IMG/VR virus record: IMGVR_UViG_3300005973_000002
Origin: a virus
Taxonomy: Duplodnaviria > Caudoviricetes
Direction: 5' to 3' (one strand)
DNA length: 64,000 nucleotides
Made by a program: the position numbers and the translations under genes. Shown piece after piece: positions 1-60,681 of the stretch (the stretch's first letter is position 1; each line of letters starts with the position of its first letter). The notes under the pieces were generated by a model. The model saw nothing but the letters and a program-made list of their open reading frames with translations, searched no databases and had not been told where the DNA came from.

Positions 1-1412
1 AATAGTGTTGGAAATAGAACTACATCACGGAGAGTGGTTTGGTTAGTCATAATGGCAACAAATCTGTCCACTCCCATTCCCAAGCCTGAACAAGGTGGCA
101 TGCCATATTCCATGCACTCAAGAAAATCTTCCTCAAGCATCATGGCCTCGTCATCGCCGTCCTCACGGGCAGCCATCTGTTCCTCCAACAACTGTCGCTG
201 TAGAACAGCGTCAGTAAGCTCCGTGTAACACTTCACAAGCTCCCAGCCATTGACAATAAACTGCCACTGCTCGACCGTGCGGCCGTCTTCGCTTCGCTGT
301 GCGAGAGGACTCATGTGAGCCGGGTAATCCTTGAGGAAAATCGGCTGAACAAGGTTTGGCCGCACCTTCTCCTTAAACATTTCGTCGATTTCCTTTGCAG
401 AACTCAACGACCAGGGCGAAATTCCAGTATATTGCTCAAATACCGCAGCATAAGACCTTACCGGAGGATCGGTAAAATCAAGCTTGGTCCCCTGATATTC
501 GACAATCATCCTCTTAATAAGAGGAGAAGCGGGATCGTTTGAATATTCATGACCGGCCGCAAAGAAAAGGTAAGACAAAAGCATCTTAAACAACTCAAGG
601 TTGTCCATATAACTCATGTAAGCGCCATACCACTCAACCGAGGTAAACTCCTGCAAGTGGGAAGGATCGACCCCTTCATTGCGAAAGTTCTTTCCGATCT
701 CATACACTCGATCAAAAGAAGCTGCAACAGCACGCTTCAAGTAAGTCTCAGGTGCAATACGAAGATAAAGATCGGCATCCAGTGCATGATGATGCGTCTG
801 AAAAGGACGAGCCTGGGCTCCTGAAGCCCGAGTCTGTAAGATCGGGGTTTCCACTTCCATGAAACCGTAGCGCTCCAGAAACTTACGAAGCTCCGAAACA
901 ATCCGAGAACGGGTCACGAAAACCTGCTTCACATCAGGGTTCATGACAATATCAAGGTAACGCTTACGAAGACGTAGCTCCGGATCAACAATTCCATCAA
1001 CCTTATTTGGGAAGGGATGGATTGGATCACGGAGAACCTTGAAAGCACGGTTTACCAAAACCGTCTTCTCGCCAGTAGTGGAAGTCCACATTTCACCTTC
1101 AATGGTGATAATACTGCCCATCTTTACAGCCTTCATCCACCCCTTGAAGCTTTCGGGGGTTTCACGCTTGTTGAAACAAAACTGAATCTTTCCAGACTGA
1201 TCGACAAGCTTTCCGAAAGCAATGGAGCCAAGTCGTCGAAAATTAACAACCCGACCCGCAAGAGTAACAGCGTGGCCGTCCCTAAGCTCAAGAGCATTGC
1301 TGGCCATCCAAGTTTGGTAGACGCCCTTTTCCACAAACTCCGAAAACTTCGGCTTGCGGACGGTCTCGGCCAACTGTTCAAGAGTACCTTCTTCATTACT
1401 TAGAGTAGACAT
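1..1412 (-). CDS. lysS: Lysyl-tRNA synthetase (class II), running off the window edge near its C-terminus
   Basis: Missed by the ORF track because there is no stop in the window. Manual translation from ATG 1412: OB-fold (TLAGRVVNFRRLGSIAFGKL), RLRKRYLDIVMN, FMEVETPIL, ARPFQTHH, LYLRIAPETYLKR, YEIGKNFRNEG, QEFTSVEWY, MEYGMPPCSGLGMGVDR, RDVVLFP. Confidence 0.96.
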   Translation of the reverse strand, partial: MSTLSNEEGTLEQLAETVRKPKFSEFVEKGVYQTWMASNALELRDGHAVTLAGRVVNFRRLGSIAFGKLVDQSGKIQFCFNKRETPESFKGWMKAVKMGSIITIEGEMWTSTTGEKTVLVNRAFKVLRDPIHPFPNKVDGIVDPELRLRKRYLDIVMNPDVKQVFVTRSRIVSELRKFLERYGFMEVETPILQTRASGAQARPFQTHHHALDADLYLRIAPETYLKRAVAASFDRVYEIGKNFRNEGVDPSHLQEFTSVEWYGAYMSYMDNLELFKMLLSYLFFAAGHEYSNDPASPLIKRMIVEYQGTKLDFTDPPVRSYAAVFEQYTGISPWSLSSAKEIDEMFKEKVRPNLVQPIFLKDYPAHMSPLAQRSEDGRTVEQWQFIVNGWELVKCYTELTDAVLQRQLLEEQMAAREDGDDEAMMLEEDFLECMEYGMPPCSGLGMGVDRFVAIMTNQTTLRDVVLFPTL

Positions 1413-8454: not shown

Positions 8455-11400
8455 AAATTCCTCTAATGAGTTGGTTAAGAACCATTAATCACTAAGAAGT
8501 TATTGACTTAACTTTTCGATTACGAAAACGCCTAAAAATATGAACCCGATGTAACCCCCGACTGACAGAATTATCAGCGGGAACATCCGCAACACCAGGA
8601 GAAACAGAGCTATATAACATATAGCACATGCCACCAAGGATGTAAACACGAAAAGGGTACTTGGTGAATATTTCCTCACGTGTCCCGCCGGGACACATTT
8701 CTGCCCCTCATTTAATAACTAGTTTCTAAAAACTTTGCGTACAAAAAGTCTCTTTTGAATTTTCGGTCAAAAAATATTCATGCCAATAAGCTTCGCCATT
8801 TTCATTAACAAAAGGAGTTACATCAAGCAATTTACGACCAAGCGTGTCAACAAAATAAAGCTTCTCACCAAGCAGTATCAGCCATGGGTTGTGTAAATCA
8901 TAGTAATTTATTGCTCGAAAATCTTCACTAGAAGGCTTGAGGTTGATGACCATGAAAAGCGTGTTGGAAAGTACCTTTTTTCCAACTTCATCTCTGTTGC
9001 ACGCCACTGGATATACCGTAGCAGTATTGCAGAACCTGAACAATTTCCCAGGTTTCATGATTACCCCATCAAAACTTACAAAAGATCGTCGTCATCATCA
9101 TCTAATGACTCTTCCGATTCAACGTTGACAGTGAGCCCCATATCTTCCAAATCAGAAATGAGCTGCTCTAAGTTTTCTTCATACTCGCCATCATCCATTT
9201 CATCATAATTGATTTCAGTTTGAACCATAAGCGACACTAGCATCTTTTTCATGAGTTTCTCCAAAGTTAAACAAATCTAAGAAATTGGTTATCAAGACTT
9301 GATATTGTACATTTGTTCGTATTTTTGTTTTTGTTCTTTGGTCATATCCTGGTATCTACGAACTGTCTTACCCCTGATGAACTTTCCATGATTTTCATTC
9401 CATCGAATGGAAGGCTCGTCGAAGGACCCAACGTAATACAACTTCTCAGACTCATCAAACTTAAACATAGTCTGATCAGAATTAAAACGACCAAAAATTT
9501 TAACAATTTTTATTTTCTTGTTTCCTTTTTGATGCTTGGTCTTGAATTTGATGCCAGCTCGCTTGAGCATTTCAGTGAATTGTTTAAAATCAGTCATGCT
9601 TAAAAAACAAAGTTAAGTGCTATAAATTTGGCTTGATCACCGAACCAAATAACTGGATGTTTGCCGTCTTTGATTGGCCAAGGAGTATTGTTTAGGTGTG
9701 TTCTAATCAGATCAAGTTCGGAACCATTGGCAACAACCATAATCTGCTCTGCATTCAGAATAAATTGCCCAGGGCCCGGTTCTTCCTTTTGTTTTTCAGT
9801 CTTTTTTGATTTAAGGATGTCAGCTCTAAATGGATTTTCTTCTCCCGCTTCCCAGGAGAAGGTAACGGCCTGATTAATTTCGTCTGTGGACATCTTTCTA
9901 TGAAAGCGTTTAAGTCTAAGTGCCGAATTAGGCCAAATTTGAACGGTGATGGTCATTAGCCCTTACCTTTGTTAGATGGCGACAATGCCAACAAACGAAA
10001 TTTTCTCATGTCTTTTCTGATTTTTTTAATCAATTTTTGAGTTCTCTTAGAAGGAGACTTGGTAAGAAATCCTCTGCCCCGAAACTTATCATAGTCTGGC
10101 AATCTGGTAAACTGTGTTGCAGTAATGTCAACCACTTCACCAGTTTTACGATGTTTTAAAAGCCAATGTATATCACCCTCATGTCTAAGAGTTCCAGGCT
10201 TCCACTCTGAACTATTGTTACAAAGATGATAAAAAGCTTCAGAAGCAACATAGCAGTGACCTTTCAGTTGATTTGATTCGCCTCTGTATTTGGGCTTTCT
10301 CAAATCATCTGAAAGGTTCTTTTTAATAAGCCTGATTATTGTTTCGTTTTTCACTTCTTTTTTGGAAAGAATTTGCTAAGTCGTCGCATCGTGCTTGCAA
10401 GTTGGCGCATTCTTCGACGACTATCATCATACCATTCACGATCCAGTCGCTCACGTTGGCCCATCTGCTTTACAACCTCATTGAGGAAATCGATTGTGTT
10501 GTGTACGTCTGTAGAAATGTCAATCCACTCTTGAGTAAACTGAACCTCTTTAGCAGTTTTTCGTTCTTTACGTCTCCTTTTCTCTATATCTTTAACAGTG
10601 ACACCCAGCTCTTCGGCCAATTCTTTCTTGCACCTATTGGCCCGCCTTCGCTGAATTTTCAGCAAGTTTTTGCGGTACCATTCAAGACAAAGTTGAAATT
10701 CATTTATTTGTTCAATATTCTCAAAATTAGTATATATTTGCTCGACCCTCGGTATAGAACGGCCATAAACTTTGTTGAGAATGTCTTCAGGAATTTCAGG
10801 GGGAGAACGCAACTGACGAATTTTTCGATTTGCGGGAGTGTCTGCAAGGTCGTTGGTGATTTCCAAATCAGGAAAATCCTCTTTCATCACTGACAAAACA
10901 TGGCGCTTATTAAAACTCCAAAGATTCAACTTTTCGTCAAACCCCCATTTCTGGGAAAAAACCATCCATTCATCTGGCGGATCATCCACATGGCGAATTA
11001 ATCGCCACGGACGTTCTTTGAGCTTTTTTCCAAAGCCTTGCCTGTGAGTTTCAGTCGGATGAAGCTTTAAAACGAAATCACCAACCCGCCGTTCAATATG
11101 TTTTCGATCTGGCCAAGGCGACCAAGGAAGTTCACCAAATTCAGGTCTTGGATTGAGTCTGCAATCTAGGTCATCAAGATTATATGGAATGTGAAATGCA
11201 AAAGTTCTTCCCTCACGGAAGTGAGGCACTTCTACCAATTCTTCTTTGTAGTGTGACACATATCCCCCTAGAGGTTAGGGTTTATTGCTTAGGTTTCGGA
11301 CAAAGTATAGCATGAACCTGATCGCCTTCGAACCCATTGGGCAATTTATCAACATCGTTCTTATCTTCGAGATATATTTCCCAGCAAAATACACCATTTG

Positions 11401-32770: not shown

Positions 32771-33196
32771 CTAAGCAACATATACTAAACCATAATATTT
32801 GCCGACAGTTCTCTTGAACTTCCATTCGCCAAGCAAAACTCCATAAGTGCAGGCAGACTTTTGAAGAGCATGGAGAAAATCGGAATCACGAATATAAAAC
32901 AACTGTTTCGTTTCTGTATGTTCCAGAATTAACTGAGTGGTGGAATTGCAACTAATAAATCGTTCAACTTTGAAAGCGGCTTTGAATGGAGAATTATCTT
33001 TCCAGGTGACATTTAGATTATTATATCTTTTTCTGTTGACATAGTCAAAGTAACTAACGACGGAAACGTTCTTACCGCACGTCCACGGGACTCCCTTTTG
33101 GGTCCATGGGATTTGATAATCTTCACTTTTTTTATTCATTTGTTTCGAGCTGCCCCCTAACCATCCTATCTTTTCGACCTTTATATTTTCGGTCAT
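32771..33196 (-). CDS. Hypothetical protein, W-K-x-N-x-PFKA family (copy 1 of 3)
   Basis: WKDNSPFKAAF...GEWKF is shared with 36627-37019 and 37012-37422. Confidence 0.7.
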   Translation of the reverse strand: MTENIKVEKIGWLGGSSKQMNKKSEDYQIPWTQKGVPWTCGKNVSVVSYFDYVNRKRYNNLNVTWKDNSPFKAAFKVERFISCNSTTQLILEHTETKQLFYIRDSDFLHALQKSACTYGVLLGEWKFKRTVGKYYGLVYVA

Positions 33197-34022
33197 AGGA
33201 TTCTAACTGACGCAAATCCAAATTTGCATCCTTGCTTTTCATTGTTCCACCGCTCAGAAACAATTCAATCATTCTATCCTTTGTAAGAATTTTGGTTGTT
33301 TTGTCATCTTTCGAGGGACCCCATCCAAGCCTTGCCAAGAAATTAAGCATTGCATCAGGATCATATCCACTGTCAATATACAATTGAAATGTTGAAGCTT
33401 GTTCTCTTTTTGAGAGTTTTTTTCCCTGATGACGCAAAAGTCCAACGTGACTATATTTTGGCAAAACGCCGCCAAGGAGGTCATACAACAAAACCTGCTT
33501 TGCTGTATTTGTAATGTGGTCCACGCCTCGAATTATATGATTGATGTCCATTTCAATATCATCAACTACAGAAGCAAAATGATAAGTGGGACTACCGTCA
33601 GATTTGATCAATGTTAGATTATCAAACCCCCGAACATTGTCCGCCCGAATGGGAATGTTGCCAGCAATATCATCAACCCAATAACTTCTGGAAAGAAAAT
33701 CACCAACAAGATTTAAATGAACTCGCTTACCATCTCGAACGGCTTTGCCACTGTCTACCAGAAACGACACGGCAGCATCATAATGCTCCATTCTTTTACT
33801 CTGGTAGTCTAAACCATCCCAATCAAGCCCAAGCCACTCAAGGCTTTTCAAAAATTGGTCAGCCCATCTCTGCTCTGACCTTTCAAGATCGGTGTCATCA
33901 ATCCTAACAAAAAACTTACCACCAGAAGCTCTGGCGGCAAGCCAATTGAAATAAGCAGTTCTCATTGTACCCAAATGAGTAGGGCCTGTAGGTGAAGGTG
34001 CGATTCTAGTAAAAAACTTCAT
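33132..34022 (-). CDS. GluRS/GluQ-RS-like class I catalytic domain lacking the anticodon-binding domain
   Basis: TRIAPSPTGPTHLG (HIGH), RIDDTDLERS, PTYHFASVVDD, HIIRGVDH, KKLSKR (KMSKS), LNFLARLGW. It ends at about 296 aa, where the anticodon domain would begin. Confidence 0.9.
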   Translation of the reverse strand: MKFFTRIAPSPTGPTHLGTMRTAYFNWLAARASGGKFFVRIDDTDLERSEQRWADQFLKSLEWLGLDWDGLDYQSKRMEHYDAAVSFLVDSGKAVRDGKRVHLNLVGDFLSRSYWVDDIAGNIPIRADNVRGFDNLTLIKSDGSPTYHFASVVDDIEMDINHIIRGVDHITNTAKQVLLYDLLGGVLPKYSHVGLLRHQGKKLSKREQASTFQLYIDSGYDPDAMLNFLARLGWGPSKDDKTTKILTKDRMIELFLSGGTMKSKDANLDLRQLESYDRKYKGRKDRMVRGQLETNE

Positions 34023-35308
34023 ATTGCGCCACTTTGTCCAAAAAATGTCCAAGCTACATTTTCCCCGGAGAGTTTTGGTTCGCCTTCGTCGAAGGTATTT
34101 CTAATAGGCAACTCATGAACCTCTGCTACAACAGAGCAATGAATGGCTTGTGCATGATCAATAGCTACATCTAGACTATCACAAGGCCCTTGAAAATTTA
34201 AACCTTCGTAAGTATGCTCAAATACAAGGCAAAATAACATTATACCATCTTCAGATGGCAGAAATCTTCTTCTGTCATCCAGCATTCTCTGTCCTTAAAA
34301 AGGACCGTTGCTCCCAAATAATCATTTGGAAAATATATTTTTCCCCACTTGCCATACTTTTGGCCAACATACTTTGGAGAGTTGCAACTGTTTTTGATGG
34401 CCAAAACATACCATATCATTTTGAAAGATCAACAGGAATGCGAACCTTACGGAGATAGTCAGCAATTTGCTGAATGGCGTGTTCAACAACGCCTTCGGAC
34501 GGATTTGTGATCATATCCATCCTGAAGTGTTCTCCTGGGCCCTGAACACCCCAACTGCAAAGCATGAAAACATCATCGTCTTCCATAACGAATGAAATTC
34601 TACCGTGATTGGACTGCGGAAAATCAAATCCTTGATAGTAGACGATCATCTCTCCCTCGCCAATTTCAACATCACTATATTGCCTTGTTTCAGCAACACA
34701 TGAATATGTCCAAGAAAGACCTTGGCGGGCAAGATGTTTACATGCGATACCAATATATTCACATGTTTTATTATGATTCACGTTTTTCTCCAAACAACTG
34801 ATCATAATAAACAAACCCAATGAGTTCTTGTTTATCCTTTTCAAATTTGCCGCAATCCTGTTCCCATTTTTCCTTTAGCTCAATGTAATCTTCGTAAGCT
34901 TTATCTGATCGACCAGTAGGACCATAATGCAAATTTGGGACTTTTCCTTCATTATTATCTTTAAGTTTTTTATTTATAATACCTCTGCCGTTGAAGGGGA
35001 AATAATCTGTATGCAGCCCCATGTGCCCTTGCCATAAAGCATGTGTAGTAATTAAGCGAATTTTATCATCGTCTGTCAGTTTATAGACGTTGTATTTACG
35101 ATACCAGCCAAAATCATATTCTGTATCAATATCATCAGGGTCTTCGGCTACTGATACAAATTCTTCAAGCAAATCAAAATAGCATATTTCATTTTCATGT
35201 AACAAAACTCCACTAAGTGGTCCATCCCAATAATCCAAATGCCAGAGAATTTGCACGTTTTCAAGTTGTTTCATTTTTTTTGCTTTCCAATTTGTTTCAT
35301 CTTTTTAG

Positions 35309-35383
35309 CGAGACCTGTGGGATTTGAACCCACATCACTCCGGGTTAAAGCCGGCCGCATTACCAATTTTCTGCCAAGGTCCC
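35309..35383 (-). tRNA. tRNA with anticodon TTA (ochre-suppressor type; Gln/Glu-like loop)
   Basis: GGGACCT/AGGTCTC acceptor, G73, anticodon stem CCGG/CCGG, loop CT-TTA-AC (anticodon 35346-35348), T arm GTGGG-TTCAAAT-CCCAC. Confidence 0.85.
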
Positions 35384-35387
35384 ATTT

Positions 35388-35637
35388 GTGGCCGCCCCAG
35401 GAGTCGAACCTGGCTGTCCCACGACTGACGACCAAACTGTCCTATCTGCTTTGACGGGTCCTTCCCCCGTTTCTATGGCCACTTGAACTAACAACATTTC
35501 ATAATCTCATGGAAGCCACACACTTCCAGCAGGAATTGAACCTGCGCCGGGAACACTTGCCACTGTCGCCGAGCCAACTACTAGTTGTTATGTACGTCAT
35601 ATCGCCGTGCGGCAAAAACAGATAGGAACAGAACTTG
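35388..35637 (-). ncRNA. Unidentified structured RNA with two T-loop hairpins (YrlA/tRNA-like modules)
   Basis: A long-range helix of about 20 bp (35613-35637 with 35433-35453); GCAGG-TTCAATT-CCTGC stacked on TGGAAGT/GCTTCCA; CCAGG-TTCGACT-CCTGG; GTGGCC/GGCCAC. Confidence 0.6.
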
Positions 35638-35641
35638 TATG

Positions 35642-35998
35642 CTAACTTGTTATTTTTTTGTAACCCCTTCCTGCTACTTTCAAGTTTGCGCAAAGTTTAG
35701 CAGTTGCTTCACTTGGCTCGATTGTCAAGGCTGTGTACTGATTGATATCAGGCTCATAGAAAAGTGAATGCCTTAGTCCCTGGCTTTCGGTCAAGCAAAC
35801 AAATGCCTTCAATGCCGCTTCGTTTTTAACTCCCAAAACTACAATGGTGTTTGAATTAGTATACCACTTTCGCTCCTCTTCGGGGAAGTCGTGTGTAAAC
35901 TGATCCTTGGCATGAATGCTTTGTGCGATTTGATAGCCAGGCGAAATGTCCTGGCGAACCAATACATACATTTTCATTGTTGGTTGACTTTGCATCAT
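35642..35998 (-). CDS. Peptidyl-tRNA hydrolase 2 (PTH2)-like protein
   Basis: KMYVLVRQDISPGYQIAQSIHA, TIVVLGV, FYEPD, TALTIEP, LCANL. Confidence 0.75.
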   Translation of the reverse strand: MMQSQPTMKMYVLVRQDISPGYQIAQSIHAKDQFTHDFPEEERKWYTNSNTIVVLGVKNEAALKAFVCLTESQGLRHSLFYEPDINQYTALTIEPSEATAKLCANLKVAGRGYKKITS

Positions 35999-36456
35999 GC
36001 CACCTCACCGCTTTTATTGAGGATTTTAGTTACACGGCAAGAGACTTTAAATTTCTTAGGATTTTTCTCCCAACGAAAGATAACATTGTCGCCAGTCTTT
36101 AACCAATGAAGGATGTTGTCTTCATTGAACTCATTTTCAGACCAATAAACACGATAGCCGCCATAGATTATACAAATAGAAGCAATATTCCTAACAGCTT
36201 CATTGAGCTGCCAGTCATTAAAATAAAGTGACCTATTTGATTCAACGTCATCATACCGCTTACCCAACATTAGGGCATATGCTAGCTGGTGTAATCTCGA
36301 ATGCCAACCAAGAGATCGCTTTCTGTTCCACCCATAAGTTTTTCCTTCAAGGTGCTTAGAATTAATTTCTTTCTTTAGAATTCTACGAGACTCGTCGGTA
36401 AATCCATTAATAGCAGCTTTTAGCTTGTAAAGGTCTTTTTTCGTAAATGCCTTCAT
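35995..36456 (-). CDS. Conserved phage hypothetical protein heading the PTH2-like operon
   Basis: Strong SD (TTTAGGAGG) and the segment RSLGWHSRLHQLAYALMLGKRY; the stop overlaps the PTH2-like start. Confidence 0.7.
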   Translation of the reverse strand: MKAFTKKDLYKLKAAINGFTDESRRILKKEINSKHLEGKTYGWNRKRSLGWHSRLHQLAYALMLGKRYDDVESNRSLYFNDWQLNEAVRNIASICIIYGGYRVYWSENEFNEDNILHWLKTGDNVIFRWEKNPKKFKVSCRVTKILNKSGEVA

Positions 36457-36464
36457 TTTATCAT

Positions 36465-36564
36465 CCTCCTAAATTTGTTATAAAGTAACACACCAACTTT
36501 TTGGTAAAACAAAGTCGGTTTTAGGAGGTGGGCCTCGGTTATATATTTACCAGAAATGCAACAT
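36465..36564 (-). promoter_or_regulatory. Leader peptide / translational attenuator: MLHFW*IYNRGPPPK... overlapping an anti-SD three-way junction
   Basis: SD AGGA lies 7 nt before ATG 36564, with TAA at 36547-36549. Codons CCT CCT AAA (36520-36528) pair perfectly with TTTAGGAGG (36465-36473). P2 is ACCGACTTT/AAAGTTGGT and P3 is TGTTA/TAACA. Confidence 0.68.
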
Positions 36565-36626
36565 GATTATATCCTGTGCTTGTGAAAGGAAAATGTTTAA
36601 ATAAACACTTTCCAGCCAAGGTAGCG

Positions 36627-37019
36627 TTAGGCTAAGCAAACACTTAGGTATCGTCCTGATTTACGGAAAACCCATTCACCCACAAACACACCAGCAATAG
36701 CCGGCAGCGTTTTAAGTAGTTGAACAAAGTCTTCTTCCTTCATGACATATTCATAACCGTTTTCGGTATCATGAAGAACTGCTTGACAACTCGTACTCTG
36801 GTTTGAACTGTAAAGATGCGAAAGACTGAGCCCTGCCTTAAACGGCTTGTTTTCTTTCCATTCAATTGGTTCGGATTTGCGAATGTAGCCATACCCTCCA
36901 ATATTTGGATGCGCCATGTCGCAAGTTTCAGAATCTTTTTTGGGGCATTGACGTGGAACACATCCATGCTTTCCTACCACGTGAGGAACCAAAAAATTTT
37001 TATCGTCTTTTTCAGTCAT
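36627..37019 (-). CDS. Hypothetical protein, W-K-x-N-x-PFKA family (copy 2)
   Basis: EPIEWKENKPFKAGL...GEWVF; the start ATG overlaps the upstream TGA (ATGACTGA). Confidence 0.75.
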   Translation of the reverse strand: MTEKDDKNFLVPHVVGKHGCVPRQCPKKDSETCDMAHPNIGGYGYIRKSEPIEWKENKPFKAGLSLSHLYSSNQSTSCQAVLHDTENGYEYVMKEEDFVQLLKTLPAIAGVFVGEWVFRKSGRYLSVCLA

Positions 37020-37422
37020 TGTTAAATTCATTAGCCTTTTCGGCAGGAACTATTGAAAGAAAGCCACCATAACTATGAAAAACCCATTCGCCAAGACAAA
37101 CACCCATAATCCACGTTGTTTTATCCATCATTTCATTGAAAAGATCTTCGCCAACATAATAAGTGGCCTCTGTTTCCGTATTTCTCATCAAGAACTGAAC
37201 TGACGAACGTTTGTTTACAACCCTATCAAATCTCAGAGCGGCTTTGAACGGCTTATTTTTCCTCCACTCAATTGGCTCGCCATCGGCTCGTTTGTTGATG
37301 GTCCAATCGTATCTTCCAGGCCAATGTGTTTATTTTCGCTTGGGGCGTCGCCAAGGAACAGAACCATCTGGGTAAAATGGAATTTCATCCTCATAAGGAT
37401 TTTTGAGCTTTCTATTTGTCAT
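37012..37422 (-). CDS. Hypothetical protein, W-K-x-N-x-PFKA family (copy 3), with an in-frame TAA at 37330-37332
   Basis: MTNRK...RRPKRK*THWPG...EPIEWRKNKPFKAALRF...GEWVFH; 137 codons, matching the length of its paralogs. Not in the ORF track. Confidence 0.85.
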
Positions 37423-37810
37423 CACTATTCTTTTTCAGTATTAAGTTTAGCGATAAGTGGATCATTAGGGCCAAGATATTCAACCAATTTATCTGGCCTT
37501 GCAAGCAGCCATTGATCACTCGTGATTGGCTTTCCTTCACATTCTGGTGGAAAAATTTCTATTTGTGGACAGTTGCCCCAATCTACATCAGCTTCGGAAA
37601 TATATCCCCATCCATATTCCGTGCCCTCCCAACCAGGATCAAAAAATATTTTTGTGGAATCTTCTACGTTAACAACACCCCATTCATGTTGGCCAAAGTA
37701 TACTTGGACATGCAATTCATCTTCATGCTTGTGAATTGGACCATGTTCATGCCAGTTTGCTTTGGGGTGTGCCCTAAGCAAATCTTCTTATGATTTATAA
37801 ACCTTTACTT

Positions 37811-38383
37811 TCATTTTTTTCGCTTGTTGTTTTCTTTCAGCATGTTGATAAAGGTTAGCCCTTGTTCCCTCGCATCATCAATTGCCACATGAGTATGAGG
37901 CATATTTTTAGGAAACCACCGTTTTGGCCAAAAGCGTTTGCTTGTTTTCTTGTAACCTGTTTGTCTCATTGCCATCACATAAGTTCGTACGTCTACACAA
38001 GAATGACTAAAAAGAGAATGACCAGTAAAATGCTTCATATACCAGTACATAAAAAGAAAATCAAAGCCGGATGGCATACAAACCATCACAGGTTTATATG
38101 TGCTTCCACATAATCTTTTTACCCATTTATCAAATGCCTTAAAGGCATCTTTAGGTTTCTGAAGATTTCTCCTGTGAGCATTCCACGCATCTGGAAATTG
38201 CTTCCACCATTCCATGGTGGAAGCATCTGGCTGGGCACCGGGAAGCAACTCTAGGTTTGCTTCAAAAAAATCTAATTCTTCCCCATCTTCGGTAAAAGCA
38301 ACAACACCAAAGCTGAGCAATGAATTGATTGCAGGCAATGGACCATCGGTTTCAATGTCCGTGCTAAAATATAATTCTTTCAT
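37811..38383 (-). CDS. DEDDh 3'-5' exo(ribo)nuclease (Rv2179c-like)
   Basis: STDIETDG, SGFDFLF, VDVRTY, HTHVAIDDAREQ. Confidence 0.85.
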   Translation of the reverse strand: MKELYFSTDIETDGPLPAINSLLSFGVVAFTEDGEELDFFEANLELLPGAQPDASTMEWWKQFPDAWNAHRRNLQKPKDAFKAFDKWVKRLCGSTYKPVMVCMPSGFDFLFMYWYMKHFTGHSLFSHSCVDVRTYVMAMRQTGYKKTSKRFWPKRWFPKNMPHTHVAIDDAREQGLTFINMLKENNKRKK

Positions 38384-38671
38384 TTGATTATCTGTAACAG
38401 GATCTTTGTACGATAACGCAAACATCCGAACCTGGCACATTTACAAAACCAGTTCCTTCTGCGTCGACTACTGTAAAAAATCCATTTGCTTCTTGTGAAA
38501 CAGAATCAACCAGCCAAGAACCATAGTCAGCCACCACGACATCGCCCTTTCGAAGGGCGCTTATTGTGATATATTGCTTTCCAAGCTTTGCAACTAGTTG
38601 TTCTAATGTAAGTCCACTCATTTATTTCTCCTACAGTAGCAGAATAGCAATGCTAGATAAACCTGTTTAGG

Positions 38672-40818: not shown

Positions 40819-40829
40819 CTATTATTTAT

Positions 40830-41181
40830 TGGACCCGATCGGAATTGAACCGATGTCCTCAAGATCGCCTAAAAAAACTTCTACGTTACCTAGTTTGATT
40901 TTCAGATTACCGGTCCGAGGTATCAGACAACCAACCGGGTTCTTTCATTTGAAATCTTGATCAGACAGCCAATAGAAATCTAACTCTAGTCTAATCCAGT
41001 CCTAATAACGACGCCTTATAGAATGCAAGGACACTCAAGCTATAAGACGGCTCTCATCAAGCAGCGAGAGCAAGAGGTGCATTGTCTGCATTTATAATCG
41101 TTTATTGGATTTAAGTGGTTCTAAACACCCACCGTAACGCCATTTTTTCTTCTTACCCCAAGTCGAAACCAGTACGGGCCC
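40830..41181 (-). ncRNA. ssrA: tmRNA (352 nt), tag peptide ADNAPLALAA
   Basis: 5' GGGCCCGTACTGGTTTCGAC; acceptor with G3.U70; ATAAAT then GCA GAC AAT GCA CCT CTT GCT CTC GCT GCT TGA (41057-41089); 3' GGAC-ATCGG-TTCAATT-CCGAT-CGGGTCC-A. Confidence 0.95.
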
Positions 41182-52288: not shown

Positions 52289-54196
52289 CTACACCGGATA
52301 CTCTCGTATTTGAATAGATTTTGGCCACTCGACAGGATCATCACCTTTTTTACTGTTCAACTTCGACATGGTCAAGCCTGTCAATATCGGCTTAGAACCG
52401 AGCTGTTTTACAAATACTTTAGTTGATGTACCATTGACGCATTTCACCACGTTGTCTGCCCAAATCCAATCAAAAGCTCGGGCTCCTGAACCGCTTTCCC
52501 CGCCCACAACAATCCAATCAAGGTCATTGACCCAAGGAGAAAAGTCAACGGGTGCTAAGGCTGGTTCGTAACTTGCCCAGCGTACTTTTGAAGTAGTTCT
52601 CAACAGAATTGGGATTCTTTTATCTGCTGTTGACTGGTCTTCACAAGACACTCCGAGCCAAACATTGTTCAGCGGCCACGTTTTGTCAACTTTATCAGTT
52701 TCTTTTCGACCGGTAAGCTTTCTAGCCTCATTGGCACAATATTCAGCTGGTGATGGGACTTGCAAGGCAACCCAATCAAACCAATCCTTTGCTCTTTCTG
52801 GTCTTTTTGTTAATACCTGAAAGGTATGCTTTTGTGCAGCTGCCATTACGCCAAAGACAGCAGCAATGTATTCATTAGCGACGCCATGATGAAAGAGATC
52901 ACTCATTGAATTAACGAACACCATTCTTGGCTTAGTCCAACGAATGGGGTCTGCAAGCTTGTCTGGTACAAGCATAATATTGCCATTCCACCTTGGACCC
53001 TTTTTGCCGACGGCAATTAACCCATGGTAAGGCTCTCCAGGCCCAGAAAACCTATGTGCGACCGTTTCCGCATAGCAATTATGCACAGCCATTCCTAATG
53101 CTATGAATGTACCAGAGGTGGTTTGTATATCTACCAAATTGCGTTTACCAATTCGTCTAATCCCATCAAATTTTATTGATTGTTTTGATGGAAATCTTCG
53201 TCCATGAAAGTCAACCGTCTTTCTTTGTAATGCAGGTTGAATTGTAGATAAAAATTGAATTTTATCAGAAATGGTTCCCAGGAGTATTTCACTTTTGTTT
53301 ACTTGCGTAGAATATTGTTCATATTTGGATTTAAATCCCAAATCAGCAATTGCACGATGAGCAATGTTCAATAAATTGTTTTCTTTGGTCTGATTAAATC
53401 TTAGATTTTTGCCACTATAACATCCATCCATATCCAAAAAACCAGCAAGAAACCCAGCTTTCCAATTAAAGTCACTTTCTTCCCGTATTATAATATTCCT
53501 AATTTTTAGGAGATTGTCCATAATCCGAGTTTCAATTTTCAACATGGGAAGGTTGGCTTCCCTGTAAAGAAATGCATCACCTCCATTAAAGGAGCGAATA
53601 TTAATATTTTTACAGCCAAATTCGATCAATGCTTTTTTTAAGCGTTCAAGAATTGGTTTATCTGTTGCCAAAACTGCCACACGACAATAAGATTGAAGAG
53701 TGCCATTTTTCCCAGAACCTTCAATTCTAATTGTGTCGTCGCCACCAACAACTCCAGCAATATATCCTGCCAAATAGGGTTTAGAATTTATATCTGGCAA
53801 CCACTTTGGAAACCCAATACTAGATATTTTTGTGTTTAAATTAATCTTTTCAGCTTTTCTCCAATATGGTCTATGTGGAGATAAAAACAAATGGTCAACA
53901 CTTGATACTATCGTATTAGAACCAAAATATAATTCTACCGCTTCTTTCCTGGTTTTCCAAGTTTTAACAACCGTAGCCTCTTCAAAAACTCTATTTTGTC
54001 CAACTTTAGGATTGTCAGTAAAAGCAATAACTTTATCACCCTCTTTAATCTCGCCAATAGGCACCCAACTCATATCGGACATTAAAACAGGCGTATCTGG
54101 GCCCAGGCAATTTTCGCAACCCTTGGAAACTCTAGAACAGCCTCTCAAAGGATTCCATGTGGCATCAGTCCACTGTATTCCGGTCTTGTTTCCCAT
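52289..54196 (-). CDS. Gp37/Gp68 (DUF5131, radical-SAM-like) protein containing an intein
   Basis: Exteins IQWTDATWNPLRGCSRVSKGCEN and CYAE..., FVNSMSDLFH, HTFQVLTKRPER, NVWLGVS, SYEPAL, WIVVGGESG, FVKQLG; the mature protein is 291 aa. Confidence 0.92.
   Translation of the reverse strand: MGNKTGIQWTDATWNPLRGCSRVSKGCENCLGPDTPVLMSDMSWVPIGEIKEGDKVIAFTDNPKVGQNRVFEEATVVKTWKTRKEAVELYFGSNTIVSSVDHLFLSPHRPYWRKAEKINLNTKISSIGFPKWLPDINSKPYLAGYIAGVVGGDDTIRIEGSGKNGTLQSYCRVAVLATDKPILERLKKALIEFGCKNINIRSFNGGDAFLYREANLPMLKIETRIMDNLLKIRNIIIREESDFNWKAGFLAGFLDMDGCYSGKNLRFNQTKENNLLNIAHRAIADLGFKSKYEQYSTQVNKSEILLGTISDKIQFLSTIQPALQRKTVDFHGRRFPSKQSIKFDGIRRIGKRNLVDIQTTSGTFIALGMAVHNCYAETVAHRFSGPGEPYHGLIAVGKKGPRWNGNIMLVPDKLADPIRWTKPRMVFVNSMSDLFHHGVANEYIAAVFGVMAAAQKHTFQVLTKRPERAKDWFDWVALQVPSPAEYCANEARKLTGRKETDKVDKTWPLNNVWLGVSCEDQSTADKRIPILLRTTSKVRWASYEPALAPVDFSPWVNDLDWIVVGGESGSGARAFDWIWADNVVKCVNGTSTKVFVKQLGSKPILTGLTMSKLNSKKGDDPVEWPKSIQIREYPV
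53078..54109 (-). mobile_element. Intein (344 aa) with a LAGLIDADG homing endonuclease domain
   Basis: Starts CLGPDTPVLM, has VSSVDHLFL and ends LVDIQTTSGTFIALGMAVHN, with Cys at +1. Endonuclease motifs are YIAGVVGGDD and FLAGFLDMDG. Confidence 0.92.
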
Positions 54197-54980
54197 TTAC
54201 TAATTCGTTCGACCAATTTGTCTATTGACCATAGACATCAACTGATTGTACACGCCTGGATCTGGCGGAAGAACCCAGTTTCCTTCTTCATCTACTCTCA
54301 TACAGTTTTCTTCAAAAACTGACCAAACGTCACAGTAATAAACGTCGCCCATTTCGGTGCACATGTCTTCAGCAGTTTGAGCAAAATCATTCACCAAAAA
54401 AACAAGCATGTGTTGCTTGAACATAGCGCATTAAATGTGATGTTTGATGGTCTAATAAACTTAATCTGAAACCACGTTCAAGTTCTGTTGAATGCATTTG
54501 TTCCAGTCTCAACTGCTGAACGTCATTGAACTCTTCAGTTATTCTAATAATTTCTCTATTGTTTTCTTGAATCAATCTCACGGTCTCAATTTGACCTTCA
54601 GCCATTCTAAGTCGCATCGACAATTGATCAACTTGTTCAATGACATATAAACAAAAAAGACATAAAACCATCACTGCTGCTGCTACTAACGCAGTTCGCA
54701 ACCCATCTTTACTGTTATTATAAAGCGATTTTAGGAAACTCATTATGCAAGTGTCTCAACTCTCTCATTAATGCTCAAAACTGCAACTTCACAAGTTCCT
54801 TCACCAAAAACCTTTTCCCAGGATTTTTTTAGATCACGGGCTCTCTTTTTCACTTCCTTGCTGTCAGGGTCATCTGAATATAATACAAAGACACGCTTGG
54901 GGTCAAATACATATTCTACAGCAGGCGAGTAATTGTCAACAGATTCTCCGTTAACAGTAATCATTGATTCTGTGGTCATG

Positions 54981-56806: not shown

Positions 56807-56926
56807 CTCCAGAGGAGGGATTCGAACCCCCGACTAATCAGCTATCTTTGAAACCATCGGATTCGCATTGCAACAAGCTTTATCCGATTCCCACAACCGA
56901 TCGCTCTACCATTGAGCTACTCTAGA
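56807..56926 (-). tRNA. tRNA-Asn-type body with a 48-nt insertion in the anticodon loop
   Basis: TCTAGAG/CTCTGGA, G73, GCTC/GAGC D arm, ATCGG/CTGAT stem, GGGGG-TTCGAAT-CCCTC. The loop is 55 nt instead of 7. Confidence 0.82.
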
Positions 56927-60609: not shown

Positions 60610-60681
60610 TGGGTTGCCTGGGATTCAAACCCAGAACCAACATTTTAAGAGACTGTTGCACTACCATTGTAGTGACCACCC
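60610..60681 (-). pseudogene. Degenerate tRNA-Lys(CTT)
   Basis: Loop CT-CTT-AA; T-loop TTTGAAT (C56 lost); C at position 8; mismatches in the acceptor and anticodon stems. Confidence 0.65.

What the first reader, a model, noticed from the sequence alone, without database searches (positions are those of the whole stretch)
33132..37422. Candidate phage-encoded stop-codon read-through circuit
Seen within 4.3 kb on one strand, in transcription order: a gene with an in-frame TAA (37330); a leader peptide with TAA before an RGPP motif that overlaps an anti-SD helix (36465-36564); a conserved ORF; a PTH2-like protein; an unidentified structured RNA; a tRNA with anticodon UUA; and a GluRS without an anticodon-binding domain. 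Established: U34 ochre suppressors read UAA and UAG, and anticodon-domain-less synthetases cannot check the anticodon. Inference: an orthogonal synthetase/suppressor pair plus a read-through-gated attenuator could form a positive-feedback switch that turns on ribosome-rescue genes and restores stop-interrupted genes. I know of no description of this combination.
Basis: partly seen in the sequence, partly recalled or inferred. Interest (0 to 1): 0.92.

Follow-up and report, generated by a model that had tools for sequence, protein, structure and literature searches.

The report
Stop-codon read-through sensor in jumbo phage
A clade of giant phages that carry tRNAs reading the stop codon TAA also carry a conserved mRNA leader that probably turns on a small two-gene operon encoding a peptidyl-tRNA-hydrolase-like protein only when a ribosome reads through a TAA, a control logic I did not find described.

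Summary
All seven listed elements exist on the minus strand of a ~461 kb jumbo-phage genome that uses the standard code. Eight independent assemblies are 99.9-100% identical here, so the TAA codons and the UUA anticodon are not read errors.

**Strongest result: the leader.** In 11 related loci a 5-10 codon mini-ORF always ends in TAA. After 3 or 4 codons, always in frame, comes R-G-P-P (9 loci) or R-A-P-P (2 loci), the two most robust known ribosome-arrest cores. Arg, Gly/Ala and first-Pro codons vary almost only synonymously. The CCUCC in or just after the Pro codons pairs with the Shine-Dalgarno of the next gene, with covarying flanks. Read-through would therefore stall a ribosome on the anti-SD and free the start of ORF153 and the PTH2-like gene.

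**Other elements.**
- tRNA(UUA) genes of at least three scaffolds are conserved across the clade.
- The RNA after PTH2 is a real, unclassified structured RNA.

**Not supported.**
- The GluRS core as dedicated charger: it belongs to a very large jumbo-phage family, mostly without nearby suppressors.
- Positive feedback.
- Wide gene restoration: one interrupted gene in 64 kb.

**Verdict:** partly supported. Everything is computational.

The parts
36547..36564 (-). Leader mini-ORF: ATG TTG CAT TTC TGG TAA (M-L-H-F-W-stop). The TAA is at 36549-36547. A conserved AGGA(T) lies 6-8 nt before the ATG.
   Evidence: The mini-ORF ends in TAA in 11 of 11 loci. HFW precedes the stop in 10 of 11, encoded with synonymous TTG/TTA and TTC/TTT.
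36523..36546 (-). Read-through segment: 3 codons (I-Y-N), then R-G-P-P-P (36537-36523), in frame with the mini-ORF. No ATG, GTG or TTG lies between the TAA and the Arg codon.
   Evidence: The spacing is always 9 or 12 nt. Arg is CGA, CGT or AGA; Gly is GGC, GGT or GGA; two loci have Ala, giving RAPP. RGPP occurs only once in the six-frame translation of the window.
36520..36530 (-). Anti-SD strand (CACCUCCUAAA) of the long-range helix.
   Evidence: The MFE fold pairs it with the SD in 11 of 11 loci, and the flanking pairs covary.
36462..36473 (-). SD strand (UUUAGGAGGAUG) of the helix. The GGAG at 36469-36466 is the ribosome-binding site of ORF153.
35995..36456 (-). ORF153, the first regulated gene. 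All-alpha protein with a long helical hairpin; function unknown.
   Evidence: AF2 pLDDT is 90.8. No Pfam, PHROG or PADLOC match and no fold match above noise.
35642..35998 (-). PTH2-like protein. Its start overlaps the ORF153 stop (ATGA), which suggests translational coupling.
35437..35631 (-). Conserved structured RNA of unknown class. It has a closing helix, a T-arm-like hairpin (GCAGGUUCAAUUCCUGC) and conserved cores.
   Evidence: No Rfam family matches.
35391..35432 (-). tRNA-like minihelix (acceptor-like stem plus T arm) between the RNA and the tRNA. Present in the window, L005 and L011 only.
   Evidence: mascRNA-like, 23.5 bits, below threshold.
35308..35383 (-). Type A tRNA with anticodon UUA (35348-35346), an ochre suppressor.
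33132..34022 (-). GluRS catalytic core (296 aa). HIGH-like HLGT and KLSKR motifs are present, the anticodon-binding domains are absent, and the acceptor-binding insertion is shortened.
37012..37422 (-). Gene with an in-frame TAA at 37332-37330. Family of unknown function, with several paralogs per locus.
36627..37031 (-). Intact paralog of the interrupted gene.
37811..38440 (-). Rv2179c-like 3'-5' exoribonuclease, syntenic upstream of the module in all relatives.
40827..41181 (-). Phage tmRNA (tag ADNAPLALAA). Also present a few kb upstream of the leader in L013 and L027.

Best explanation
The leader at 36564..36454 is a translational attenuator whose input is read-through of a UAA codon.

**Default state (OFF).** A ribosome starts at the mini-ORF (M-L-H-F-W) and normally terminates at UAA. 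A terminating ribosome does not reach the anti-SD, which lies 17-19 nt further on. The helix between CCUCC and the Shine-Dalgarno of ORF153 therefore stays closed, and ORF153 and the translationally coupled PTH2-like gene stay off.

**Induced state (ON).** If a tRNA decodes the UAA, most plausibly one of the phage's own tRNA(UUA) species, the ribosome goes on for 3-4 codons. It then arrests at R-G-P-P with the Pro codons in its P and A sites. The arrested ribosome covers the whole anti-SD strand, the SD is freed, and other ribosomes start on ORF153/PTH2.

**Meaning.** Expression of these genes is coupled to the level of ochre suppression in the infected cell. This makes sense if suppression raises the load of stalled ribosomes and peptidyl-tRNA. 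A phage tmRNA lies nearby.

**Shown here**
- The conservation, frame, codon pattern, helix and covariation of the leader.
- The reality and conservation of the suppressor tRNAs.
- The synteny of the module.

**Taken from the literature**
- RGPP and RAPP arrest ribosomes robustly and resist EF-P.

**Inferred**
- That read-through happens.
- That the phage tRNA causes it.
- That the arrest occurs with so short a nascent chain.
- What ORF153 and PTH2 then do.

**The interrupted gene.** Gene 37422..37012 is most simply a nonsense allele tolerated because suppression exists.

**The GluRS core.** It is probably a general jumbo-phage translation gene, not the suppressor's dedicated charger.
For: **Leader architecture**
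- It is conserved in 11 loci: the window, L005, L007, L008, L011, L013, L014, L015, L024, L027 and L029.
- The stop is always TAA. The spacer is always 9 or 12 nt.
- The arrest core is RGPP in 9 loci and RAPP in 2.
- Arg is encoded by CGA, CGT and AGA; Gly by GGC, GGT and GGA; the first Pro by CCA, CCC and CCT.
- No start codon lies between the TAA and the Arg codon.

**Helix**
- In all 11 loci the MFE fold pairs the SD with CCUCC in or just after the Pro codons, over 8-12 bp.
- The flanks covary: CCUCCUAAA/UUUAGGAGG, CCUCCAUCA/UGAUGGAGG, CCUCCUGUU/AAUAGGAGG, CUCCUUUUGA/UUAAAAGGAG and AUUAUCUCC/GGAGAUAAU.

**Arrest motif**
- RGPP occurs once in the six-frame translation of the 64 kb window.
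- RAPP and RGPP are the most robust arrest cores, are refractory to EF-P and are excluded from proteomes (PMC12992588).

**Suppressor tRNAs**
- tRNA(UUA) is present in nine of the eleven leader loci. The other two, L007 (1.1 kb) and L029, end soon after PTH2.
- Type A has 8 of 19 pairs with compensatory change and an invariant UUA.

**Parallel in amber lineages**
- L009 and L033 carry tRNA(CUA).
- Their PTH2 genes begin M-T-H-TAG-V-Q and M-K-M-T-TAG-V-Q.

**Sequencing error is excluded**.
Against: **No experiment**
- Read-through, arrest and induction are all untested.
- At arrest the nascent chain would be only 12-17 residues. Published RAPP/RGPP arrests were measured in longer peptides whose N-terminal parts contribute (PMC12992588), so arrest strength here is unknown.

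**Confounded signals**
- The Pro codons are also constrained by the anti-SD function, so part of the 'coding' signal is confounded. The Arg and Gly/Ala codons are not.

**Gaps in coverage**
- The amino acid carried by the tRNA is unknown.
- The window phage shows only one tRNA(UUA) in 64 kb, and only 14% of the genome was seen.
- TAA ends about a third of the window's own ORFs, so strong suppression would also hit phage genes. How that is tolerated is unexplained.

**Weak links**
- L024 has the leader and ORF153 but no detectable PTH2. The link is therefore to ORF153 first, whose function is unknown.
Confidence: 0.6

Rival explanations
1. The anticodon-domain-less GluRS specifically charges the UUA tRNA as an orthogonal pair. 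Read-through of the leader raises expression of the whole operon including the tRNA, giving positive feedback. Suppression restores stop-interrupted genes.
For: - The GluRS core lies within 0.4-1.7 kb of a tRNA(UUA) in the window, L005, L011, L012, L013, L014 and L015, even where other genes were inserted between PTH2 and the tRNA.
- It lacks the anticodon-binding domain.
- At the TAA of the interrupted gene, orthologs have GAA, GAG or GAT (Glu/Asp), one base away from TAA.
Against: **The GluRS core is a general phage gene**
- Its family is very large: more than 7,600 hits at E<1e-20, 280-310 aa long, some on contigs of 100-460 kb.
- Relatives L002-L004, L034 and L035 have no suppressor tRNA within 8-10 kb.
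- In L001 it directly follows three ordinary tRNA-Glu genes.

**The suppressor tRNAs do not look like tRNA-Glu**
- They fall into three unrelated scaffolds. One is most like tRNA-Lys genes.
- None resembles the phage tRNA-Glu genes more than other tRNAs.
- The type A discriminator base varies between G, U and A.

**Other points**
- The window also encodes a LysRS.
- Only one interrupted gene was found in 64 kb, and none in 52 kb of a relative.
- Translation control of an upstream ORF does not by itself raise a downstream tRNA.
Confidence: 0.1
2. The leader senses termination capacity in general, such as release-factor activity, near-cognate read-through or stress, rather than the phage suppressor tRNA. 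Its linkage to tRNA(UUA) is only shared synteny within one clade.
For: - The mechanism needs only that UAA is sometimes read through.
- A known E. coli leader, PepNL, is tuned by near-cognate read-through of its stop codon (PMC11890864).
- All loci belong to one clade, so co-occurrence is not statistically independent.
Against: - The stop is TAA in 11 of 11 loci, never TGA or TAG. TAA is the stop least prone to spontaneous read-through and is recognised by both release factors (established knowledge).
- A cognate UUA tRNA is encoded in nine of the eleven leader loci, and the other two end soon after PTH2.
- Lineages with CUA tRNAs instead have TAG at the start of PTH2, so the stop matches the suppressor.
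Confidence: 0.15
3. The suppressor tRNAs exist mainly to decode TAA as a sense codon in genes elsewhere in the 461 kb genome, such as late or structural genes. This would parallel TAG/TGA-recoded phages. The leader would then be a timing device tied to that switch.
For: - TAG- and TGA-recoded phages pair suppressor tRNAs with recoded late genes (bioRxiv 10.1101/2021.08.26.457843).
- The window holds no recognisable structural genes, so late genes were not examined.
- One gene in the window does carry an in-frame TAA.
Against: - The standard code gives dense coding on the minus strand, and TAA ends 41 of 121 ORFs.
- The window has one in-frame TAA candidate in 64 kb. The 52 kb contig of relative L024 has none on its coding strand.
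- Surveys found no TAA-recoded phages (PMC13037316).
Confidence: 0.12
4. The region is only an RNA element: an SD-sequestering hairpin opened by temperature, a protein or a small RNA. The mini-ORF simply ends at TAA, and the RGPP reading is a by-product of the CCUCC anti-SD.
For: - CCNCCU necessarily reads Pro-Pro in one frame.
- The helix alone could regulate.
Against: - The Arg and Gly/Ala codons lie outside the anti-SD core. They vary only synonymously, or to the other known arrest residue: CGA/CGT/AGA and GGN/GCN.
- Two or more independent indels in the spacer keep the frame (9 to 12 nt).
- The mini-ORF has its own conserved SD and conserved residues encoded with synonymous changes.
Confidence: 0.06

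Closest known systems
RAPP-type arrest-peptide leaders (SecM, ApdA, ApdP, ApcA and the Streptomyces RAPP/RGPP peptides; PMC7897499, PMC10951233, PMC12992588)
   Same: - A small upstream ORF carries an R-[A/G]-P-P core.
- A stalled ribosome would open a helix that hides the Shine-Dalgarno of the next gene.
- The motif is otherwise avoided.
   Different: - Here the arrest core lies behind an in-frame UAA, so it is reached only after read-through.
- The peptide is 12-17 residues at arrest and has no signal or membrane segment.
- The regulated genes are ORF153 and a PTH2-like protein of a phage, not Sec/YidC components.
PepNL leader of E. coli (PMC11890864)
   Same: In both, stop-codon read-through inside a leader ORF sets the regulatory outcome.
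   Different: - PepNL arrests at the stop codon, and read-through by a near-cognate Trp-tRNA relieves the arrest.
- Here termination is the default off state and read-through creates the arrest. A cognate suppressor tRNA is encoded alongside.
Stop-codon-recoded phages with suppressor tRNAs (Lak, crAss-like and others; bioRxiv 10.1101/2021.08.26.457843; PMC13037316)
   Same: - Phage-encoded suppressor tRNAs.
- The proposed use of suppression to time gene expression.
- Large genomes with many translation genes.
   Different: - Those phages recode TAG or TGA genome-wide in late genes. No TAA recoding has been reported.
- This phage reads as standard code in the 64 kb seen, and uses a dedicated sensor leader rather than many in-frame stops.
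ermC-type and other leader-peptide translational attenuators
   Same: A ribosome stalled in a short leader remodels the mRNA so that the downstream ribosome-binding site opens.
   Different: The inducer there is a ribosome-bound drug or metabolite. Here it would be decoding of a stop codon.
Glutamyl-Q tRNA(Asp) synthetase (YadB/GluQRS)
   Same: Both are GluRS catalytic domains of about 300 aa without an anticodon-binding domain.
   Different: - The phage protein scores higher with true GluRS: 263 versus 171 bits in NCBIfam, and 190 versus 95 bits against PDB chains.
- It fails the GluQRS cut-off.
- It has its own deletion in the acceptor-binding insertion.

Membership tests
RAPP/RGPP-type arrest-peptide leader | C-terminal core R-A-P-P, R-G-P-P or a close variant | tested here: met
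   RGPP in 9 loci and RAPP in 2. The motif set is taken from PMC12992588.
RAPP/RGPP-type arrest-peptide leader | The stall site is placed so that the arrested ribosome disrupts a helix hiding the downstream SD | tested here: met
   The MFE folds of 11 loci pair the SD with CCUCC in or just after the Pro codons, with covarying flanks. In silico only.
RAPP/RGPP-type arrest-peptide leader | Demonstrated elongation arrest (toeprint or peptidyl-tRNA accumulation) | not testable with these tools
   Needs in vitro translation.
RAPP/RGPP-type arrest-peptide leader | An N-terminal secretion or membrane segment that lets the export machinery release the arrest (the monitoring-substrate subclass) | tested here: not met
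   Only 5-10 residues precede the stop and 3-4 follow it. There is no room for a signal or membrane segment.
Suppressor tRNA (ochre) | Cloverleaf with a 7-nt anticodon loop, U33, anticodon UUA and a purine at position 37 | tested here: met
   ARAGORN and Rfam at 54.4 bits. The loop reads CU-UUA-AC. 8 of 19 pairs are compensatory.
Suppressor tRNA (ochre) | Aminoacylated and active in decoding UAA | not testable with these tools
   The amino-acid identity is unresolved.
PTH2 peptidyl-tRNA hydrolase (PF01981) | Match to the family profile above the curated cut-off | tested here: met
   35.5 bits against a cut-off of 23. A profile of the phage family hits the solved Pth2 structure 2zv3 at E=2e-6 over residues 8-97.
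PTH2 peptidyl-tRNA hydrolase (PF01981) | Conserved catalytic residues of archaeal/eukaryotic Pth2 | tested here: inconclusive
   In the alignment the GKGK loop is replaced by PGY and the loop after the conserved Asp is shorter. The NCBIfam equivalogs fall far below their cut-offs.
Glutamate-tRNA ligase (bacterial GluRS) | Class I catalytic domain with HIGH and KMSKS-type motifs | tested here: met
   PF00749 at E=5.6e-61. The HLGT and KLSKR motifs are read from the sequence.
Glutamate-tRNA ligase (bacterial GluRS) | C-terminal anticodon-binding domains | tested here: not met
   The protein ends at profile position 315 of 470. It scores 263 bits against a cut-off of 290. PDB alignments stop near residue 300-335 of GluRS.
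GluQRS (YadB) | Match to the GluQRS equivalog models | tested here: not met
   171 bits against a cut-off of 276.7, lower than its GluRS score. YadB structure 1nzj scores 95 bits against 190 bits for GluRS.
Stop-codon-recoded phage (TAA as sense) | Many conserved genes interrupted by in-frame TAA, and coding density rescued by recoding | tested here: not met
   The standard code fits the window and TAA ends 41 of 121 ORFs. One candidate was found in 64 kb, and none on the coding strand of a 52 kb relative. The rest of the 461 kb genome was not seen.

The most novel reading that the evidence does not exclude
The phage deliberately imposes ochre suppression on the infected cell, either as host takeover or as a timed decoding switch. 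The leader then acts as a model substrate: each read-through event produces one arrested ribosome. The output, ORF153 plus the PTH2-like protein alongside the phage tmRNA, would match rescue capacity to the read-through load.

Amber-suppressor lineages would reach the same coupling by placing a TAG at the start of PTH2. If so, this would be a natural, homeostatic 'suppression sensor', and the first functional rationale for suppressor tRNAs in standard-code phages.
Probability: 0.3. Interest if true: 0.9.

Novelty: new variant of a known kind. Interest (0 to 1): 0.8.

Why it matters
- **Open question.** Suppressor tRNAs are often predicted in phages that use the standard code, and their purpose is unknown. 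Ochre suppression is usually thought too costly, because TAA is the commonest stop.
- **A testable answer.** A conserved leader that can be read only by suppressing TAA, and that then uses the strongest known arrest motif to open a ribosome-binding site, suggests the phage measures suppression and responds to it.
- **New input for a known device.** It would add stop-codon decoding to the inputs of arrest-peptide attenuators.
- **Function for unknown genes.** It would link phage suppressor tRNAs to ribosome-rescue genes (PTH2-like, tmRNA) and give ORF153 a functional context.
- **Practical use.** It would supply a compact natural part, about 110 nt, that reports suppressor tRNA activity, useful in genetic-code engineering.

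Tried and rejected
- **DNA search against 50,697 phage records.** No match for the 4.7 kb region.
- **Rfam at permissive thresholds.** No family for the structured RNA. Only weak tRNA-like and tmRNA-like fragments appeared.
- **ORF153 function.**
  - No Pfam, NCBIfam, PHROG or PADLOC family.
  - No Atlas lead.
  - The confident AF2 model gave no Foldseek hit below E=0.75. The best VIA Z was 6.2, within the noise expected for helical models.
- **Amino-acid identity of the tRNAs by similarity.**
  - Type B leans toward tRNA-Lys: 84% to phage tRNA-Lys genes.
  - Types A and C are no closer to any one isoacceptor than to others.
- **Promoter and terminator scan.** Counts were at chance level.
- **All-against-all tblastn for in-frame stops in conserved genes.** The output was swamped by out-of-frame ORFs. 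Only WIN 37332 (TAA) and L033 3540 (TAG) stood out, each supported by several different queries.
- **Loose ORF-pair scans of short loci.** Too noisy to use.
- **Same-frame neighbouring ORFs in the window.** All other cases are a stop followed directly by ATG, meaning ordinary adjacent genes.
- **Scan of 185,579 prokaryote genomes for the leader pattern.** Two hits, both chance: inside other reading frames, without an ATG and without a nearby tRNA.
- **Look-up of P0017.** It returned no DNA.
- **** was a wasted call because I gave an empty structure.

Full report
**What the window is.** All long ORFs lie on the minus strand. The standard code gives dense coding, with 52.9 kb of 64 kb in stop-to-stop ORFs of at least 100 codons. 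TAA ends 41 of 121 ORFs. The window carries a tmRNA, several tRNAs, a LysRS, a NAPRTase-like protein and other auxiliary genes, but no recognisable structural genes. The PTH2-like and GluRS-core proteins of the window occur on contigs of up to 461 kb, so this is a jumbo phage known only from metagenomes. No record in the GenBank phage collection matches its DNA.

**Checking the observation.** Every listed element is there.
- The gene 37422..37012 has a single in-frame TAA at 37332-37330. The next possible start codon is 46 codons further on.
- The leader, ORF153, the PTH2-like gene (Pfam 35.5 bits, cut-off 23), the tRNA with anticodon UUA (ARAGORN; Rfam 54.4 bits) and the 296-aa GluRS catalytic core were all confirmed.
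- Eight independent assemblies from different JGI, ENA and Logan samples match the window over 38440..33132 wherever they overlap it. Seven are 100% identical and one is 99.9% identical. The stops and the anticodon are therefore not sequencing errors.

**The leader is the key finding.** I collected relatives through the PTH2-like protein, the GluRS core and DNA patterns. Eleven loci share one design.
- A mini-ORF of 5-10 codons has its own AGGA ribosome-binding site. It reads M-x-H-F-W in 8 loci, MTKSFTEHFW in L024 and MSKEFL in L008.
- The mini-ORF always ends in TAA.
- A spacer of exactly 3 or 4 codons follows.
- Then comes R-G-P-P (9 loci) or R-A-P-P (L027, L029).

The codon pattern points to translation rather than to an RNA-only element.
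- Arg is encoded by CGA, CGT and AGA.
- Gly is encoded by GGC, GGT and GGA, and Ala by GCT and GCA.
- The first Pro is encoded by CCA, CCC and CCT.
- Variation in these codons is synonymous, apart from a change to the other residue known to support arrest.
- No ATG, GTG or TTG lies between the TAA and the Arg codon, so this frame can be reached only by reading through the TAA.
- RGPP occurs nowhere else in the six-frame translation of the window.

**The helix.** In each of the 11 loci the minimum-energy fold pairs the Shine-Dalgarno of ORF153 with the CCUCC inside or just after the Pro codons. The helix is 8-12 bp long and its flanking pairs covary between lineages.

The geometry fits the model.
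- In the window the UAA is at leader positions 16-18 and the anti-SD strand is at positions 35-45.
- A ribosome terminating at UAA should not reach the helix.
- A ribosome arrested with the first Pro codon (34-36) in its P site would cover all of it.

**What the literature adds.**
- RAPP and RGPP are the two most versatile and robust arrest cores. [quoted passage not shown] 2025, PMC12992588).
- Arrest-peptide leaders that open an SD-hiding helix are a known kind: SecM, ApdA and ApdP (PMC7897499, PMC10951233).
- I found no paper in which the arrest core sits behind a stop codon.
- The nearest case is PepNL, where near-cognate read-through relieves an arrest at the stop codon (PMC11890864).
- TAA recoding has not been reported in phages.

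**The suppressor tRNAs.** tRNA(UUA) genes occur in nine of the eleven leader loci. The other two, L007 and L029, end soon after PTH2. They fall into at least three scaffolds.
- Type A: the window, L005, L008, L011, L012 and L013.
- Type B, most like tRNA-Lys genes: L005, L011, L012, L014, L015, L024 and L027.
- Type C: L015 and L027.

Type A has compensatory changes in 8 of 19 pairs while UUA never changes. Its discriminator base varies between G, U and A. Which amino acid any of them carries could not be decided.

More distant relatives carry tRNA(CUA) instead.
- In L010 it lies 40 nt after PTH2.
- In L009 and L033 the PTH2 gene itself begins M-T-H-TAG-V-Q and M-K-M-T-TAG-V-Q.
- L033 has a second TAG inside the gene.

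So the stop codon that gates PTH2 matches the suppressor that each lineage encodes. This supports a functional coupling between suppression and PTH2 expression. The cultured jumbo phage XacN1 also has two tRNA(CUA) genes next to a tmRNA.

**The interrupted gene.** Its ortholog in L011 is intact at 76% identity. At the TAA site orthologs have GAT (L011), GAG (L029) and GAA (L005), while other homologs have Asp, Glu or Ser.

Downstream of the TAA the non-synonymous difference to L011 is 0.144. This is the same as for the intact neighbours (0.146 and 0.142), while synonymous sites are saturated. The gene has therefore not drifted as a long-dead pseudogene would. Either the stop is recent or the gene is still read. 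In L005 the gene is cut down to 42 codons, so it is dispensable. I read it as a nonsense allele tolerated under suppression, not as evidence of a designed restoration system. No other convincing case exists in the window or in a 52 kb relative.

**The GluRS core.**
- It is closer to true bacterial GluRS than to YadB/GluQRS, and it fails both curated cut-offs.
- It lacks the anticodon-binding domains and part of the acceptor-binding insertion.
- Its family is very large and sits on many contigs of 100-460 kb.
- In L001 it follows three ordinary tRNA-Glu genes. In L002-L004, L034 and L035 no suppressor lies within 8-10 kb.
- Within the leader clade it stays within 0.4-1.7 kb of a tRNA(UUA), but that is one clade's synteny.
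- The three tRNA scaffolds do not look like tRNA-Glu.

The orthogonal-pair idea is therefore unsupported, though not excluded.

**ORF153 and PTH2.** ORF153 is the gene directly behind the leader. L024 keeps the leader and ORF153 but has no detectable PTH2. ORF153 belongs to a family of 354 representatives whose conserved part is the N-terminal 75 residues. It folds confidently (pLDDT 90.8) as a long helical hairpin plus a small helical bundle. It has no family or fold match above noise.

The PTH2-like protein is a remote member of PF01981. A profile of its family reaches the solved Pth2 structure 2zv3 at E=2e-6, but the lysine-rich loop of archaeal Pth2 is replaced. Its activity is uncertain.

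**The structured RNA.** Directly after PTH2 in eight loci lies an RNA of about 200 nt with seven helices.
- 89.8% of cells are paired, against 36-44% when the partners are slid.
- 28 of 43 pairs change on both sides, and 0 of 500 shuffles reach this.
- It contains a T-arm-like hairpin.
- In three loci, including the window, a tRNA-like minihelix follows it.
- No Rfam family fits, and its role is unknown.

**Judgement.** The synthetase pairing, the positive feedback and broad gene restoration are not supported.

The limits are these.
- All evidence is computational.
- The host is unknown.
- The 11 loci are related, so they are not independent samples.
- Only 14% of the genome was seen.

Noticed in passing
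window 56807-56926 (-): A tRNA (Rfam 50.5 bits) with a 51-nt insertion in the anticodon loop, missed by ARAGORN. The anticodon is unclear; GUG and UCA readings are both possible.
   Followed up: partly
window 60610-60681 (-): A weak tRNA-like sequence (30 bits, just above the gathering score) with several non-canonical pairs. Its anticodon region reads CUCUUAAAA.
   Followed up: no
window 3-1412 (-): A phage-encoded class II lysyl-tRNA synthetase with an OB anticodon-binding domain (NCBIfam 450 bits). It runs off the end of the window. This is relevant because one suppressor scaffold resembles tRNA-Lys.
   Followed up: partly
window 52289-54196 (-): A DUF5131 protein whose profile match is split in two by a LAGLIDADG-like insert, possibly an intein or homing endonuclease.
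   Followed up: no
L009 5983-6369; L033 3340-3672 (-): In lineages with tRNA(CUA), the PTH2 gene starts with 3-4 codons, then an in-frame TAG, then GTA CAA. L033 has a second TAG inside the gene. This looks like direct amber gating of PTH2.
   Followed up: partly
L010 3281-3676: In a GC-rich distant relative, a tRNA(CUA) lies 40 nt after the PTH2 gene. The PTH2-suppressor adjacency is therefore older than the TAA clade.
   Followed up: no
L027 6194-6981: The GluRS core of this relative is split by a frameshift. This is either an assembly error or a decaying gene.
   Followed up: no
L028 4940-5010: A mini-ORF ATG ATG TAG lies 60 nt before PTH2. If read through, it would run across the PTH2 ribosome-binding site. 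No tRNA was found in the 8 kb held.
   Followed up: no
window 35391-35432 (-): A tRNA-like minihelix (acceptor-like stem plus T arm, no anticodon arm) lies 7 nt before the tRNA(UUA). In L005 it is followed by ACCA.
   Followed up: partly
L030-L032 (contig of L024): A 52 kb fragment of a relative carries 42 tRNA genes covering nearly all amino acids, plus one tRNA(UUA). One ARAGORN call has a four-base anticodon (gtca).
   Followed up: no
L034 6291-14549: A distant GluRS-core phage has a translation island with ribosome recycling factor, an L7/L12-like protein, ClpS, a Ro60-type vWA protein and a second synthetase.
   Followed up: no
window 54199-54204 and 9289-9294 (-): Some genes end in tandem stops (TAG TAA, TGA TAA). 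Whether TAA-terminated genes carry back-up stops against suppression was not tested.
   Followed up: no
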